From: a phage
Length of the DNA stretch: 64,000 bases
Assembly (NCBI GenBank): GCA_027263115.1
Contig: GCA_027263115.1_3656.1
Reading direction: 5' to 3' (one strand)
Shown: positions 28,682 through 31,475 of the stretch, one piece after another
Layout: each line of letters opens with the position of its first letter
Numbering within the stretch: the first letter of the stretch is position 1
Notes under the pieces: model-generated
Databases searched by the model: none
The model's input: the letters and a program-made list of their open reading frames with translations, nothing else
What the model was told of the DNA's origin: nothing
Translations under genes and position numbers: made by a program

Positions 28682-28764
28682 CAAATACCTATTGTAATTT
28701 GCAGAAGGGGATGCTAAAATAGTGTCTCCTTCTATGTTGTTCAAATAAAATCGGAGATTCCATA

Positions 28765-29130
28765 ATGGAACAAATGAACGATCAAGCGTCGGTTGCGATG
28801 AACGAGCAAGAACAACCTCAAGAATTTTTCTTAGGGTTAAGTAAAGATCAAGTGTCTCTTCTACTAGTGCTTTCTTCTTTCATGGGAAGACTTCAGGAGC
28901 TCACACAACAACCAGAGGCTGAACAATTATTTCAAGCTCTGCGTGAAGAAGAAAAATATCGTCGTTTGGACTATGCCTTAGGTTGGGTAGCTCAACAACG
29001 AGATATGCTGATGGCCCTCTCTGGGACCACAAGTTTTGCAATGGGGCTGTTGGCTCAAGTTCAGGACAAATTAATTCAAGCAGGGTTTGCACACACGGCA
29101 AACACTAACGAAGAACAAGGAGACAAATAA
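28765..29130 (+). CDS. hypothetical protein
   Basis: 121-aa ORF. Confidence 0.5.
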   Translation: MEQMNDQASVAMNEQEQPQEFFLGLSKDQVSLLLVLSSFMGRLQELTQQPEAEQLFQALREEEKYRRLDYALGWVAQQRDMLMALSGTTSFAMGLLAQVQDKLIQAGFAHTANTNEEQGDK

Positions 29131-30401
29131 TGAGCGTTATTCAACAATTCGCTAACCCGATGAATCCGCGTGAAACTGTTTTACTGGCTCACGGCATGAT
29201 TAAACGTGTCAGCATCAAGCCTATCAAAGGTGCTGATCCTACAACAGGTATTAAAACCACTGTGTGGCAAGGTAAGAAAATTGAATCCAGCCACACCATC
29301 TCTTTACTGATTTCTGAACTGGATTCCTCTGATAACCTGCTTCAAGGTGGTGAAGAAGTTTGGATCAGCATGGGTGATAAGCTGCTTAAACCGGGGCATC
29401 AAGACTCTGTCTCTGTTAAGATTGATGACAAGTGGGAAACCGTAACGCCAGGATGGATCGTAAATATTCCTTTGAAGGCAAACGAGCATAACGGTAAGAC
29501 CTATTACAAAGGCTCACTGGCTAAGATGGTTAAGCTGGGTGTAGGAGAGGCTCCAGCAGCGACTCAGCAGCAAAAACAGCAACAAGGTGCACAATCACAA
29601 GGCCAGAAGCAGAAACCTCAGCAGAATGCCAATCAGGACGTTTTACGCATCTATGGTGATGTGACTCAGATTGTTGGCAACGTGGTTACTGTTAATGACC
29701 ACAAGATTGGCGAAGGTGCTATGGTTGTAACTGATGAGCAGCTTAAAGACCTGGTGGTAGGTGGTCGTGTTGCAGCCATTGTTGACAAAGACACCGGAAA
29801 CATTATCAGTGGTTTCAAGGCCTATCCTCCTAAGGCAGAGAACGGCACTCAAGGCTCTGGTGGCAAGCGTAAATCCTCTTACGACCCTATCGGTGTGGAA
29901 ACGGGGCATAGCATCAATGCGTTGCAAATCATCCTGGATCGCGGGTTTAAGGTAGACGACCCACTAGGAGTGGCTAAAACACTACACGTAGTCACTATTG
30001 AGCTTAAGAAAGAGTATGCTCAAGCCACCAACCGAACTGAAGATGAAGTAGGTGCCAGTGTCGGTAATGCGGTGTTGAACGCTTGTCGCCGTATTGACAA
30101 GAAAACTAAAGTTGATGATTTTGCAGCGGCAATTACTGCAGAAGCAAAAGATGTCTTGACTAATCTGGCTGAGCCGTTGTACGATTGGATCAAGAACGGT
30201 GCTGGGTCAACTGACCATCAAGAACCTCAGGCTGCCAAACAGGAAGCAGCTCCACAGCAAAACACTGTAGACGCTCCTCCTGTAAATGATGAGGAAGATG
30301 ACCCAATGGATCAGAATCCAGCACAGTATGACTTCTGTGATGACATACCTTTCGCTCCAGTGGGTTTGCAATATGGCAAAAGTAGAATCCACGCATTGTA
30401 A
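29130..30401 (+). CDS. putative ssDNA-binding protein (SSB-like acidic tail)
   Basis: Gln-rich linker and near-C-terminal YDFCDDIPF resembling the E. coli SSB tip MDFDDDIPF, followed by 15 extra residues; OB-fold not confirmed. Confidence 0.4.
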
Positions 30402-30996
30402 GAGGTGCATCAAGTGCGGAGAGGTGAAAAACCTCTCCGAGTTCTACAAACACCCAAAGATGTCTGACGGTCATCTTAATAAGTGCAAAGAGTGTTGTAA
30501 GAAGGCCAGTAGGGAGGCTGACCAGTTTTCCCACGACTCTTCAGAAAAAGGTGTAATACGCGTGTTGTACAAGGCTCAAAAGTGCAACAGCAAGCAAAGA
30601 GGTCACCCTCCTCCGACTTACACCAAAAAAGAGTTTAAGGAGTGGCTATACCTGAACGGTTACAAAGAGTTGTATGACCAGTGGGTAGCCAGCGGATACG
30701 ACAAAAGGAAAAAGCCTTCTTGTGACAGGATAGATGATTTCAAAGGGTACTCTTTTGATAATATCCGTTTAACGACCTGGGGAGAAAATAAAGACAAGCA
30801 GACGGAGGATATTCTGTTGCATAGAAGCACCAGCGGTAGACGGTGTAAAAATGTAAGGAGGCTGGACATGAATGGAAACGTTCTTAAAGAATGGGTATCC
30901 CACAATTCTTGTAGAAGAGAAACCGGAATATGTGTTGATTACTACATTCATGAAAAAATTCCAGCCCCCGATGGATACCTCTACGAATACTTTTAG
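30372..30996 (+). CDS. HNH-like endonuclease with N-terminal zinc ribbon
   Basis: CKRCIKCG...CKEC ribbon and [19 protein letters not shown]...EN motif; start taken at internal ATG 30372. Confidence 0.5.
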
Positions 30997-31011
30997 CACC
31001 TAGTTAACATA

Positions 31012-31040
31012 GCCCTGCCCGAAAGGGTGGGGCATTTTTG
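31012..31040 (+). terminator. intrinsic terminator
   Basis: same gccctgcccgaaagggtggggc hairpin as at 19363, followed by ATTTTTG. Confidence 0.7.
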
Positions 31041-31058
31041 TATAAGGAGATCTAAAAA

Positions 31059-31475
31059 ATGACATTAGAAGATATCATTGTTAAACCTGAGAACTATGAC
31101 CAATACAACCTGTCAACTCAATCTGTAGACCTTGGATGCGCCACGGTCAGTGCGTGGCTGGTTAACGGAAAAGAGCTGGATAAATGCTTAGAAGCTCACA
31201 TGTCTATTAACAAGTTTCTGGATGAAAATACTCACTGGCTTGAGGGTGCAGGAGTATATGCTTCATGGTTGGAAAGTATGGGATTCGACTACCAATCTGA
31301 AGAAGGGTGGTGGAGCTATTTAGCTATCTGCCCAGAGACGCTGCAATGCTTCATGAAATATTCTGAAGATTTGGAGTACCGGGCGGTGGTTGATAGTGCT
31401 ATTGCCCGTTATAGCCGTAAACCTTTTTCCCACGACATTAAAACTGTGGAAGAGTTTGTTGAAGTTTTCTGTTGA
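31059..31475 (+). CDS. hypothetical protein
   Basis: 138-aa ORF with AAGGAGA RBS. Confidence 0.55.
   Translation: MTLEDIIVKPENYDQYNLSTQSVDLGCATVSAWLVNGKELDKCLEAHMSINKFLDENTHWLEGAGVYASWLESMGFDYQSEEGWWSYLAICPETLQCFMKYSEDLEYRAVVDSAIARYSRKPFSHDIKTVEEFVEVFC

What the first reader, a model, noticed from the sequence alone, without database searches (positions are those of the whole stretch)
29130..30401. SSB-like protein whose DDIPF tip is internal rather than C-terminal
The protein has an N-terminal domain, a Gln-rich flexible linker and the SSB-type motif YDFCDDIPF, but this is followed by 15 more residues ([15 protein letters not shown]) that overlap the start of the next HNH gene. In canonical SSBs the DDIPF must be the free C-terminus, so the true stop may lie earlier, a frameshift may be involved, or this is a non-canonical variant.
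Basis: inference. Interest (0 to 1): 0.4.

Follow-up and report, generated by a model that had tools for sequence, protein, structure and literature searches.

The report
Capped SSB tip beside homing endonuclease
This rV5-like phage's single-strand-DNA-binding-like protein really does carry 15 extra residues after its DDIPF tip; the extension is a conserved, apparently undescribed "cap" found on many phage SSBs, here linked to a homing endonuclease gene, and it probably alters which host proteins and defences the tip can engage.

Summary
ORF 29130-30401 encodes 423 aa ending ...[24 protein letters not shown], and its last 29 nt overlap the next gene (30373-30996).

It is not a sequencing error or a frameshift: 32 rV5-like phage records carry the same tail.

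The protein is the Vequintavirus SSB-like protein (PHROG 4477). Its predicted N-terminal domain is an OB fold. Its uncapped ortholog, Bas52_0087, was reported in 2026 as the trigger of the DRT10 defence.

The 15 residues belong to a conserved, phage-restricted C-terminal cap, AP[IV]GL[QP][YF]-x(3-5)-hydrophobic-x-small-hydrophobic. The cap follows DDDIPF on at least five unrelated scaffolds, mostly with no endonuclease nearby. It is under purifying selection in the SSB frame (pN/pS 0.12).

Within Vequintavirus the cap is polymorphic. It occurs only with a roughly 640-nt insertion carrying an HNH-superfamily homing endonuclease; endonuclease-free genomes end ...FDDDIPF*. Relatives of that endonuclease repeatedly sit just after genes ending in acidic ...(D/E)IPF tips.

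Inference: cap and endonuclease entered together by homing. The cap removes the free C-terminal Phe needed for canonical SSB-tip docking, for example to ExoI. That functional step is untested.

The parts
29130..30401 (+). SSB-like protein gene (423 aa). It is rV5 ORF214, the PHROG 4477 family, and the ortholog of Bas52_0087.
   Evidence: ORF. PHROG 4477 E=1.6e-173 over residues 1-408. rV5 annotation. D252 and Y351, the DRT10 escape positions in Bas52_0087, are both present: and bioRxiv 10.64898/2026.04.29.721553.
29130..29552 (+). N-terminal beta domain (aa 1-141), a predicted OB fold.
29553..29636 (+). Gln-rich disordered linker (aa 142-169).
   Evidence: pLDDT below 50; sequence [24 protein letters not shown].
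29637..29837 (+). Second small beta domain (aa 170-236).
   Evidence: AF2 strands 171-232 with pLDDT 82-89. The 2026 preprint describes 'two OB-fold domains' in the ortholog. This domain is absent from the shorter phi92/Phapecoctavirus-type homologs.
29877..30203 (+). Four-helix domain (aa 250-358). It holds the most conserved residues: D252, G255, G259, H260, N263.
   Evidence: AF2 helices 253-355 with pLDDT 84-96. Conserved columns. The escape mutations D252V and Y351C were mapped by the preprint to a putative oligomerisation interface.
30204..30329 (+). Acidic, Pro/Gln-rich disordered tail that leads to the tip.
   Evidence: pLDDT about 30-38; sequence.
30330..30353 (+). SSB-Ct-like tip DFCDDIPF (aa 401-408). 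It carries the variant Cys403, where endonuclease-free alleles have FDDDIPF.
   Evidence: 8 of the 30 nt upstream of the insertion junction differ from phage Murica, against 0.014-0.025 differences per nt elsewhere.
30354..30398 (+). The 15-residue cap [15 protein letters not shown] (aa 409-423), a member of a conserved phage SSB C-terminal module.
   Evidence: The same module occurs in distant homologs, in canonical phage SSBs, in 38 IMG/VR loci and in about 55 representatives of 50%-identity clusters. pN/pS is 0.12 for the first 7 codons in this frame.
30351..30990 (+). Roughly 640-nt segment absent from endonuclease-free Vequintavirus genomes: a Phe codon, the cap, and all of the endonuclease ORF except its last codon and stop. 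Boundaries are ambiguous by a few nt.
   Evidence: Alignment A1 and the junction sequences. Endonuclease-free alleles read CC(N) TTT TAA CAT..., and the window reads CCT [TTC GCT ... GAA TAC] TTT TAG CAC... Coverage classes of 100%, 94% and 73% appear.
30373..30996 (+). Free-standing homing endonuclease gene (207 aa; rV5 ORF213 'endonuclease VII'): an N-terminal Cys4 zinc finger followed by a beta-beta-alpha-Me (HNH-superfamily) domain.
30417..30439 (+). 9-bp hairpin (CGGAGAGGU-GAAAA-ACCUCUCCG) inside the 5' coding region of the endonuclease gene. The ATG at 30373 also sits in predicted structure.
   Evidence: strand folding on 30340-30460 gives -36.3 kcal/mol, z = -3.27 against shuffles. Function not tested.
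31012..31033 (+). Intrinsic-terminator-like hairpin shared by endonuclease-bearing and endonuclease-free genomes.
   Evidence: conserved in all alleles in alignment A1.
28765..29130 (+). Upstream 121-aa gene (PHROG 7310). Its stop overlaps the SSB-like start (TAATG). It may be a partner protein.
   Evidence: A 110-131-aa gene sits immediately upstream in all related loci.

Best explanation
WHAT IT IS (mostly shown). Window 29130-30401 encodes the Vequintavirus SSB-like protein. Its predicted architecture is an OB fold, a second beta domain, a helical (probably oligomerisation) domain, and a long acidic disordered tail carrying an E. coli-SSB-like tip (DFCDDIPF). In this allele the tip is followed by a 15-residue cap, [15 protein letters not shown].

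The cap is neither an error nor random read-through. It belongs to a conserved, phage-restricted peptide module, [AS]P[IV]GL[QP][YF]-x(3-5)-hydrophobic-x-[C/A/S/V]-hydrophobic-COOH. This module directly follows (EPPMDF)DDDIPF on at least five unrelated scaffolds: PF00436 SSBs of lambdoid and marine phages, two other small SSB-like types, helical-only proteins, and the rV5/phi92 family. It is kept by purifying selection in the SSB reading frame.

HOW IT GOT HERE (inferred from comparative data). Among rV5-like phages of 93-99% nucleotide identity the cap is polymorphic. 58 records end ...FDDDIPF* with no endonuclease. About 25 end ...FDDSIPF* followed by one form of the endonuclease gene. 32, including this window, have FCDDIPF plus the cap, with the endonuclease ORF starting inside the cap codons. 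The endonuclease belongs to a family whose members sit immediately 3' of genes ending in acidic ...(D/E)IPF tips. The likely route is therefore homing: the endonuclease cuts the conserved tip-coding DNA of an endonuclease-free co-infecting genome, and repair copies the endonuclease gene together with the adjacent cap and the altered tip codons.

WHAT IT DOES (inference, about 0.35 on its own). The cap removes the free C-terminal Phe that canonical SSB-Ct docking needs. The capped allele should then still coat ssDNA but engage ExoI, PriA, RecQ or chi poorly or differently. That could change its behaviour towards defences that sense this protein, such as DRT10, which is triggered by the uncapped ortholog and antagonised by ExoI.

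The confidence of 0.6 applies to the statement as a whole: about 0.85 for the identity and conservation layer, about 0.6 for acquisition by homing, and about 0.35 for the masking function.
For: - ORF, tip and cap coordinates.
- Family assignment: PHROG 4477. Ortholog Bas52_0087 lies in MZ501102, which is hit H84, the uncapped allele. D252 and Y351 are present.
- Cap in distant homologs (26-42% identity).
- Cap on canonical SSBs with no endonuclease downstream (HK75, ECP1, epsilon34, Vibrio phage, Kashira, BIS47).
- Cap in 38 IMG/VR loci, mostly without an endonuclease.
- Cap in about 55 cluster representatives.
- Only 8 hits in 185,579 species genomes.
- HK75-type capped ssb in prophages of 169 of 5,426 E. 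coli genomes.
- Selection: pN/pS 0.12 (pS 0.76) for cap codons 1-7 in the SSB frame, against 0.86 and 2.2 in the other two frames. In the overlap region it is 0.55 in the SSB frame and 0.84 in the endonuclease frame.
- The tip under the cap is still conserved: E-P-P-M/I-D-F-D-D.
- Polymorphism and linkage with the endonuclease.
- Substitution cluster at the junction: 8/30 nt upstream and 4/30 nt downstream, against at most 0.025 per nt elsewhere.
- Endonuclease remnants after caps in endonuclease-free relatives (L017, G1, Kashira).
- Five of six sampled endonuclease homologs lie after genes with a ...(D/E)IPF tip.
- Endonuclease fold is HNH-superfamily.
- A C-terminal fusion on E. coli SSB abolishes ExoI binding but not ssDNA binding: PMC7293020.
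Against: - No experiment here or in the literature searched shows what the cap does.
- AF2 leaves the cap disordered and undocked (pLDDT about 30).
- The full canonical tip stays conserved beneath the cap. That is hard to explain if the cap simply inactivates the tip. It could mean the tip still works internally, or that the cap is removed.
- In Vequintavirus the cap is seen only with the endonuclease. Its presence in this lineage could therefore be hitch-hiking rather than selected.
- The direction of events (insertion of cap plus endonuclease, or deletion from a capped ancestor) is not proven. Deeper Vequintavirinae (Kashira, BIS47, P0045) are capped.
- The pN/pS estimate rests on 7 loci and 7-15 codons.
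- The endonuclease has Arg where HNH enzymes have the catalytic His, so its activity is unverified.
Confidence: 0.6

Rival explanations
1. The cap adds a function. It would be a second short linear motif that recruits a specific host (or phage) protein, working next to or together with DDDIPF, rather than simply masking the tip.
For: Both halves of the cap are strongly conserved at the peptide level: AP-x-GL and the C-terminal hydrophobic-x-small-hydrophobic motif. The tip and cap are conserved together. The cap occurs in phages with unrelated replication and recombination modules but with related, gammaproteobacterial hosts, which points to a shared host partner.
Against: No partner has been identified. 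There is no resemblance to known motifs: the clamp-binding QL[SD]LF was considered, but the Gln is not invariant and the spacing varies. AF2 gives no structure for the cap. No solved structure contains it.
Confidence: 0.2
2. The tail is a neutral scar. Insertion of the endonuclease displaced the stop codon, and the extra residues are read-through with no function of their own.
For: In Vequintavirus the tail occurs only with the endonuclease. In locus L070 a helicase gene ending ...DEDIPF carries an unrelated 22-aa hydrophobic read-through in front of a related endonuclease gene. In L073 an SSB ends ...DDEIPHSS* in front of another related endonuclease gene. Other non-homologous extensions also exist, for example P0231 and P0296.
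Against: The same peptide recurs in hundreds of genes. Synonymous sites are saturated while amino acids are conserved (pN/pS 0.12). Most capped genes have no endonuclease or remnant downstream. In the overlap region the SSB frame is the better conserved one, not the endonuclease frame.
Confidence: 0.12
3. The cap is a pro-peptide or degron. It would be removed, or would direct proteolysis, so that the mature protein exposes DDIPF-COOH, or so that the protein level is controlled.
For: The junction F|AP is invariant and the canonical tip is fully conserved under the cap. The C-terminal hydrophobic-x-small-hydrophobic-COOH pattern resembles, from my own knowledge only, the kind of non-polar C-terminal tags that bacterial proteases recognise.
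Against: No protease or cleavage has been shown. No specific similarity to the ssrA or MuA type tags. This cannot be tested with the tools available.
Confidence: 0.1
4. The cap acts at the DNA level. Extending the ORF would separate the tip codons from the stop codon and downstream sequence, destroying the endonuclease recognition site and giving immunity to cleavage.
For: Endonuclease-bearing alleles consistently have non-canonical tips or altered 3' ends: DDSIPF, FCDDIPF plus cap, EDVPF plus cap, DDQEIPF, DTEIPF, DDEIPHSS. Substitutions cluster at the junction.
Against: DNA-level immunity would not need a conserved peptide. Third codon positions vary freely. Capped genes themselves host these endonucleases right after the cap, so the cap does not keep them out.
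Confidence: 0.08
5. Artefact: a sequencing or assembly error, or a programmed frameshift, with the true product ending at DDIPF.
For: None beyond the expectation that DDIPF should be C-terminal.
Against: The identical frame and tail occur in 32 independently sequenced phages and in metagenome assemblies (P0001, 533 member sequences). Homologous caps exist across families.
Confidence: 0.01

Closest known systems
Bas52_0087 of phage RudolfGeigy (Bas52), the SSB-like trigger of the DRT10/UG17 defence (bioRxiv 10.64898/2026.04.29.721553)
   Same: It is the orthologous gene in a roughly 97.5%-identical genome region (hit H84). It has the same numbering for D252 and Y351, the same OB-fold and helical architecture, and an acidic tail with an SSB-like tip.
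   Different: Bas52_0087 is the uncapped, endonuclease-free allele ending FDDDIPF*. The window allele has FCDDIPF plus the 15-aa cap and the adjacent endonuclease gene. The preprint text does not mention capped alleles.
E. coli SSB and canonical phage or plasmid SSBs (Pfam PF00436) with the SSB-Ct tip DFDDDIPF
   Same: An OB fold at the fold level, a disordered linker, and an acidic tip with the same core, D-D-I-P-F.
   Different: No PF00436 sequence match. There are two extra folded domains. The tip is internal. In every solved SSB sequence that matched the tip-plus-cap profile, the match stopped at the tip Phe and none contained the cap. A C-terminal fusion on E. coli SSB abolishes ExoI binding (PMC7293020).
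Capped SSBs of lambdoid phages and prophages (HK75, epsilon34, ECP1: ...[23 protein letters not shown])
   Same: The same two-part C-terminus: a canonical tip followed directly by a homologous 15-aa cap. Intermediates such as APIGLQYPRHAIYVI and APIGLPYPRHAIYVI link the two subtypes.
   Different: These are 168-171-aa PF00436 tetramer-type SSBs located in recombination modules, with no endonuclease downstream. As far as the literature searches show, their cap has not been described either.
Free-standing phage homing endonucleases (T4 Seg/Mob proteins, I-HmuI-like HNH enzymes)
   Same: Presence/absence polymorphism between near-identical genomes, insertion next to a highly conserved coding sequence, and a cluster of substitutions at the insertion site. 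HNH-superfamily fold.
   Different: Here the insertion lies at the very last codon of the target gene, and the endonuclease ORF overlaps a conserved peptide extension of that gene. The catalytic-motif His is replaced by an invariant Arg (DRID). No Pfam model matches.
T7 gp2.5 and gp4 acidic C-terminal tails ending in Phe
   Same: An acidic disordered tail with a terminal aromatic residue, in a phage that has a T7-like DNA polymerase and primase-helicase nearby. From my own knowledge, the terminal Phe position is critical in gp2.5.
   Different: There is no sequence relationship. The tip here copies the host SSB tip rather than the T7 one, and it is capped.

Membership tests
Canonical bacterial/phage SSB (Pfam PF00436) | Sequence match to the SSB OB-domain profile | tested here: not met
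   No Pfam family at E<=0.1. In contrast, HK75 and marine capped SSBs match PF00436 at 1e-36 to 1e-40.
Canonical bacterial/phage SSB (Pfam PF00436) | OB-fold ssDNA-binding domain | tested here: met
Canonical bacterial/phage SSB (Pfam PF00436) | Disordered linker ending in the acidic tip ...DDDIPF | tested here: met
   Residues 359-408 are disordered and acidic and end DFCDDIPF.
Canonical bacterial/phage SSB (Pfam PF00436) | Tip Phe is the free C-terminus | tested here: not met
   15 residues follow F408.
Canonical bacterial/phage SSB (Pfam PF00436) | Binds ssDNA and is a homo-oligomer | not testable with these tools
   Needs EMSA or fluorescence titration and SEC-MALS.
Vequintavirinae SSB-like protein (PHROG 4477; Bas52_0087 family) | Full-length profile match and conserved synteny | tested here: met
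   PHROG 4477 E=1.6e-173, residues 1-408 against profile positions 1-393 of 393. 72 homologs. Same neighbours as in rV5, Murica and others.
Vequintavirinae SSB-like protein (PHROG 4477; Bas52_0087 family) | Residues whose mutation lets phage escape DRT10 (D252, Y351) | tested here: met
   Both are present. D252 is nearly invariant in the family.
Capped-tip module (defined here) | [AS]P[IV]GL[QP][YF] immediately after ...IPF, then 7-9 residues ending hydrophobic-x-small-hydrophobic-COOH | tested here: met
   [15 protein letters not shown] fits alignments A4 and A6. Near-identical caps occur on canonical SSBs: L043 [16 protein letters not shown] and L047.
HNH-superfamily free-standing homing endonuclease (neighbouring gene 30373-30996) | Beta-beta-alpha-Me nuclease fold | tested here: met
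HNH-superfamily free-standing homing endonuclease (neighbouring gene 30373-30996) | Catalytic His of the HNH motif | tested here: not met
   The family motif is PSxDRID...GY...N...N with an invariant Arg119 where I-HmuI-type enzymes have His. The comparison with I-HmuI is from my own knowledge. No Pfam HNH model matches.
HNH-superfamily free-standing homing endonuclease (neighbouring gene 30373-30996) | Presence/absence polymorphism at a fixed site in otherwise collinear genomes, with altered target sequence in carriers | tested here: met
   Coverage classes of 100%, 94% and 73% among 116 records. Precise junctions. Substitution cluster at the junction.
HNH-superfamily free-standing homing endonuclease (neighbouring gene 30373-30996) | Site-specific cleavage of the endonuclease-free allele and biased inheritance | not testable with these tools
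   Needs in vitro cleavage and mixed-infection crosses.

The most novel reading that the evidence does not exclude
The cap is an evolved switch on the SSB tip. By blocking the free C-terminal Phe, it would stop the phage SSB from sequestering or recruiting host tip-binding proteins such as ExoI, and so let capped phages avoid defences that sense this protein (DRT10-like). Meanwhile a dedicated homing-endonuclease family that recognises tip-coding DNA would spread tip-plus-cap cassettes between unrelated ssDNA-binding proteins and even helicases.
Probability: 0.22. Interest if true: 0.8.

Novelty: new variant of a known kind. Interest (0 to 1): 0.6.

Why it matters
The SSB C-terminal tip is one of the best-studied protein-interaction hubs in bacterial DNA metabolism, and the accepted rule is that its last Phe must be the free C-terminus.

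A conserved, selected peptide that caps this tip in many phage SSBs is unexpected. It occurs in prophages of about 3% of complete E. coli genomes, and PGAP annotates those genes simply as 'ssb'. It implies either an unrecognised way of using the tip or a deliberate way of silencing it.

The uncapped ortholog of this very protein was reported in 2026 as the trigger of the DRT10 defence, with ExoI as antagonist. The natural capped and uncapped alleles in near-isogenic phages therefore give a ready-made experiment, and several of these phages are in the public BASEL collection.

The linked endonuclease family, apparently specialised for tip-coding DNA, also offers a mechanism for shuffling C-terminal modules between unrelated genes.

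Tried and rejected
- **Pfam.** No hit for the SSB-like protein or for the endonuclease, even at E<=10.
- **Literature.** Full-text searches for GLQY+SSB, the cap strings (IPFAPI, IPFAPV, APIGLQY, APVGLQY, PFPRHAI, APVTLPF), DDIPF plus homing endonuclease, and phage SSB C-terminal extension found no description of the cap. They did find the Bas52_0087 preprint. This is absence within the held library only.
- **'The tail is just the endonuclease 5' region read in another frame.'** Rejected. The SSB frame is the conserved one, and most capped genes have no endonuclease.
- **'The tail always travels with the endonuclease.'** Rejected, because HK75, ECP1, epsilon34, the Vibrio phages and the marine caps lack it.
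- **Clamp-binding motif resemblance (QL[SD]LF / QxxxLF).** Considered from memory and rejected. The Gln is replaced by P, M or A in many caps, and the spacing varies.
- **The search for homologous proteins with a 27-aa profile.** With a 43-aa profile it returned only short fragments, so it is not a census.
- **The 'all 11 loci' line.** It contains a coordinate error for L013 and is not used. Only the 7-locus figures are cited.
- **AF2.** It gave no docking of the cap onto the folded domains.
- **PDB sequence search.** It found no chain containing a cap.
- **Microhomology deletion.** A simple deletion from the window-type allele does not reproduce the endonuclease-free junction in frame, by my reading. 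The direction of the event (insertion or deletion) is left open.
- **DRT10 preprint supplements.** Those held do not contain per-phage plating data.
Full report
**1. The observation**

The window is an rV5-like Vequintavirus. Region 28700-31100 is 94-99% identical to 116 phage records, including rV5 itself, where the gene is ORF214 and its neighbour is ORF213 'endonuclease VII'.

ORF 29130-30401 (+) encodes 423 aa ending ...[25 protein letters not shown]. The DIPF codons are at 30342-30353, the 15 extra codons at 30354-30398 and the stop at 30399-30401. The next gene starts at ATG 30373, inside the tail, giving a 29-nt overlap.

Thirty-two phage records encode the same C-terminal 36 aa at 95% identity or more over the full length. 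A metagenome cluster of 533 member sequences has the same end (P0001). A sequencing error or an isolated frameshift is therefore excluded.

**2. What the protein is**

Pfam finds nothing. PHROG 4477, of unknown function, matches at E=1.6e-173, and its profile ends exactly at residue 408, the Phe of DDIPF.

An AF2 model built on 49 homologs (mean pLDDT 73.7) gives this layout:
- a beta domain, residues 1-141
- a Gln-rich disordered linker, 142-169
- a second beta domain, 170-236
- a four-helix domain, 250-358
- a disordered acidic tail, 360-423

A 2026 preprint (bioRxiv 10.64898/2026.04.29.721553) describes Bas52_0087 of phage RudolfGeigy (MZ501102). It reports an SSB-like protein with two OB folds and a C-terminal FDDDIPF 'C-tip' that is needed to trigger the DRT10 reverse-transcriptase defence. 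Escape substitutions are D252V and Y351C, and ExoI (SbcB) acts as antagonist. MZ501102 is hit H84, and the window protein has D252 and Y351 at the same numbers. Bas52_0087 is therefore the ortholog, in its uncapped form.

**3. The tail is polymorphic and linked to a mobile endonuclease gene**

Alignment of the junctions and the raw junction sequences show three allele classes.

| Class | Examples | C-terminus | Downstream |
|---|---|---|---|
| A | Murica, JLBYU08, FV3 | 408 aa, ...FDDDIPF* | no endonuclease |
| B | inoa | ...FDDSIPF* | 192-aa endonuclease gene 9 nt downstream, with a different N-terminus |
| C | window, rV5 | ...FCDDIPF plus 15 aa | 207-aa endonuclease ORF starting inside the tail |

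By tblastn of the last 36 aa there are 32 class C, 58 class A-like and about 25 class B-like records. These numbers agree with the 100%, 73% and 94% coverage classes.

Endonuclease-free genomes read CC(N) TTT TAA CAT.... The window reads CCT [TTC GCT ... GAA TAC] TTT TAG CAC.... About 640 nt therefore sit between the Pro and Phe codons. The insert supplies a new Phe codon and the cap, while the old Phe codon and stop now terminate the endonuclease ORF (...EYF*).

Differences between the window and Murica are concentrated at the junction. There are 8 in the 30 nt upstream and 4 in the 30 nt downstream, against 0.014-0.025 per nt further upstream and none in the next 800 nt downstream. This is the pattern expected of a homing-endonuclease target site altered in carrier genomes, or of a short co-conversion tract.

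**4. The endonuclease**

- No Pfam model matches. PHROG 1035 'endonuclease VII' matches at 4e-41.
- 184 homologs were found. Some carry NUMOD or I-HmuI-type Pfam domains in the precomputed annotation.
- Invariant residues are a Cys4 zinc finger (C12, C15, C38, C41) and the motif PSxDRID...GY...N...N.
- The AF2 model has pLDDT 92.

It is therefore an HNH-superfamily protein, but with an invariant Arg where the catalytic His is expected. Its activity is unverified.

I sampled six homologs for genomic context. Five lie immediately downstream of a gene ending in an acidic tip:
- a PF00436 SSB ending ...DDQEIPF*
- a PF00436 SSB ending ...DDEIPHSS*
- a small SSB-like protein ending ...DTEIPF*
- a small SSB-like protein ending ...DDSEIPF*
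- a DEAD/ResIII helicase ending ...SDEDIPF plus a 22-aa unrelated extension

Only the most distant homolog (40% identity) lies elsewhere.

A second, shorter HNH type has the classic motif (...AHHDDY...WLCQAHH..WH) and shares the same N-terminal zinc finger. It sits after capped genes in ACG-M12, L021, L049, L056 and L058. The family thus appears specialised for DNA that encodes SSB-type tips. That conclusion is an inference from position; cleavage was not tested.

**5. The tail is a conserved module, not a by-product**

Among the 72 homologs, both C-terminal forms recur down to 26% identity...DDIPF* and ...DDIPF-AP[VI]GLQY-x-[IL][YH]x[LIM]*.

A tblastn search with 26 aa of tip plus cap finds 212 phage records that cover at least 80% of the query. 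These include:
- canonical SSBs of lambdoid phages HK75, ECP1 and epsilon34 (...[23 protein letters not shown])
- a Vibrio phage
- Phapecoctavirus G1
- Drexlerviridae ACG-M12
- other Vequintavirinae: Kashira, BIS47 and NINP13076

Most of these have no endonuclease downstream.

Further distribution data:
- An exact degenerate-codon scan for DIPFAP[VI]GLQY finds 38 IMG/VR loci, mostly 150-250-aa SSBs. Cap subtypes include ...QYPALLMCM and ...QYGRNFIHCI. An endonuclease is present in only three of these loci.
- The same scan finds only 8 hits in one genome from each of 185,579 bacterial and archaeal species. All but one are gammaproteobacteria.
- A profile search of 1.84 billion cluster representatives finds about 55 capped representatives of 50 to 480 aa. 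They include more divergent caps such as APIGLQEGKFFVHMI, APVGLMYDNNFLHCI and IGHGYGVCRKAIYAIS.
- The HK75-type capped ssb lies in prophages of 169 of 5,426 complete E. coli genomes, where it is annotated simply as ssb.

Scaffolds that carry tip plus cap include PF00436 SSBs, two Pfam-less small types, helical-only proteins and the rV5/phi92 family.

Selection was estimated on seven loci that were found through the N-terminal family rather than through the cap:
- Cap codons 1-7 have pS 0.76 and pN 0.089, so pN/pS is 0.12 in the SSB frame. The other two frames give 0.86 and 2.2.
- In the region that overlaps the endonuclease ORF, the SSB frame gives 0.55 and the endonuclease frame 0.84.

Across endonuclease-bearing loci the cap changes conservatively ([24 protein letters not shown]). 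The overlapping endonuclease N-termini change radically ([24 protein letters not shown]).

The eight residues before DIPF stay E-P-P-M/I-D-F-D-D in capped proteins. The canonical tip is therefore still under selection beneath the cap.

**6. How the two facts fit together**

The cap is far more widespread than the endonuclease, so it is an SSB feature in its own right. The endonuclease family targets the 3' end of tip-bearing genes, and it has repeatedly sat right after caps.

Remnants of the endonuclease remain after the cap in endonuclease-free relatives:
- L017: MPCNRLIKCV... together with the 3' end of the ORF
- G1: a KVCFKC remnant
- Kashira: a short remnant

In Vequintavirus the simplest reading is that cap and endonuclease arrived together by homing from a capped donor. 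A canonical SSB in IMG/VR (L043) carries an almost identical cap, [16 protein letters not shown].

The opposite direction, loss of cap plus endonuclease from a capped ancestor, is not excluded. Deeper Vequintavirinae are capped, and an endonuclease-free FCDDIPF* allele exists (P0005/L060).

**7. Likely function (inference)**

Established knowledge: partner proteins dock the SSB-Ct through its last residues. An E. coli SSB with GFP fused to its C-terminus binds ssDNA normally, but its binding to ExoI is undetectable (PMC7293020).

A 15-residue extension should likewise prevent canonical docking. The capped protein is therefore expected to coat ssDNA while engaging ExoI, PriA, RecQ or chi poorly or differently.

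The uncapped ortholog triggers DRT10, and ExoI dosage counteracts that defence. Capping might therefore change sensitivity to such systems. This has not been tested.

The persistence of the full canonical tip under the cap argues that the story is not simple inactivation. The rivals are a second docking motif, a removable pro-peptide or degron, a neutral scar, and DNA-level immunity. Each is listed with its test in the rival explanations.

AF2 leaves the cap disordered. No solved structure contains it. No paper in the searchable library mentions it.

**8. Verdict**

The finding is real and more interesting than a gene-overlap curiosity. It exposes a conserved, apparently undescribed cap on the phage SSB tip. 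It also exposes an endonuclease family that lives at tip-coding DNA, in a protein family just shown to be a defence trigger.

What is shown:
- the anatomy of the gene and its tail
- the conservation of the cap and selection on it
- the polymorphism among rV5-like phages
- the linkage with the endonuclease gene

What is inferred:
- homing as the route of acquisition
- the masking or retuning function of the cap

I rate it a new variant of a known kind, with interest about 0.6.

Noticed in passing
L070 1-1476 (helicase) and 1501-2118 (endonuclease): A DEAD/ResIII helicase gene ends ...YDISDEDIPF followed by an unrelated 22-aa hydrophobic extension (SLSIAIPLASLSLYLEWYNLII*), with a related endonuclease gene 24 nt downstream. 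SSB-type tips on helicases therefore appear to be targets of this endonuclease family too, and here the extension looks like genuine read-through.
   Followed up: partly
window 30373-30996; alignment A3: In 44 aligned homologs the endonuclease family has an invariant Arg (R119 in PSxDRID) where HNH enzymes normally have the catalytic His. No Pfam model recognises the family, although the AF2 model is confident and PacI-like.
   Followed up: partly
window 28765-29130: A 121-aa gene (PHROG 7310, unknown function) ends in TAATG, overlapping the SSB-like start. A 110-131-aa gene occupies the same position in every related locus examined. One submitter (JLBYU08) calls both genes 'putative SSB'. It may be a partner subunit.
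   Followed up: no
window 30340-30460: The RNA around the endonuclease start is more structured than shuffled controls (z -3.27). A 9-bp hairpin lies at 30417-30439, inside the zinc-finger coding region. Equivalent GC hairpins occur at the same place in L021 and ACG-M12. This might limit endonuclease translation.
   Followed up: partly
phage records MG065635-MG065690 (hits H2, H8, H9, H20 and others): Sixteen records named 'Campylobacter phage', with host Campylobacter jejuni, are 97-99% identical to E. coli rV5-like phages across this region. The host assignment looks doubtful.
   Followed up: no
L013 2147-2581 (Salmonella phage NINP13076); L024: Proteins of 144-171 aa, annotated as SSB or left unannotated, consist only of the helical domain of the rV5-type family plus the acidic tail, tip and cap. 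They have no OB fold. Tip plus cap therefore also occurs on proteins unlikely to bind ssDNA themselves.
   Followed up: no
L043 and L047 (IMG/VR): Canonical 153-155-aa SSBs with caps nearly identical to the window's (AP[IM]GLQYGKSRI[HY]ALS) are followed by an unrelated 97-101-aa ORF. That ORF starts at the same ATG inside the cap (MAKAGSTRY...), where the window endonuclease starts MAKVESTHC.
   Followed up: no
L073 920-1408: A PF00436 SSB upstream of a related endonuclease gene ends ...DDEIPHSS*. The tip Phe is lost altogether, which suggests that endonuclease-associated target-site changes can damage the tip.
   Followed up: no
proteins P0231, P0296, P0238, P0343: Other, non-homologous or only half-homologous extensions follow DDDIPF: WGRIFKM, MNPYFREAILAV, LGHGYGICRKAIYAIS and RRRGYGFYRHAIYAIA. 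The C-terminal half of the cap (R-x-A-I-Y-A-I) seems more persistent than the AP-x-GL half.
   Followed up: no
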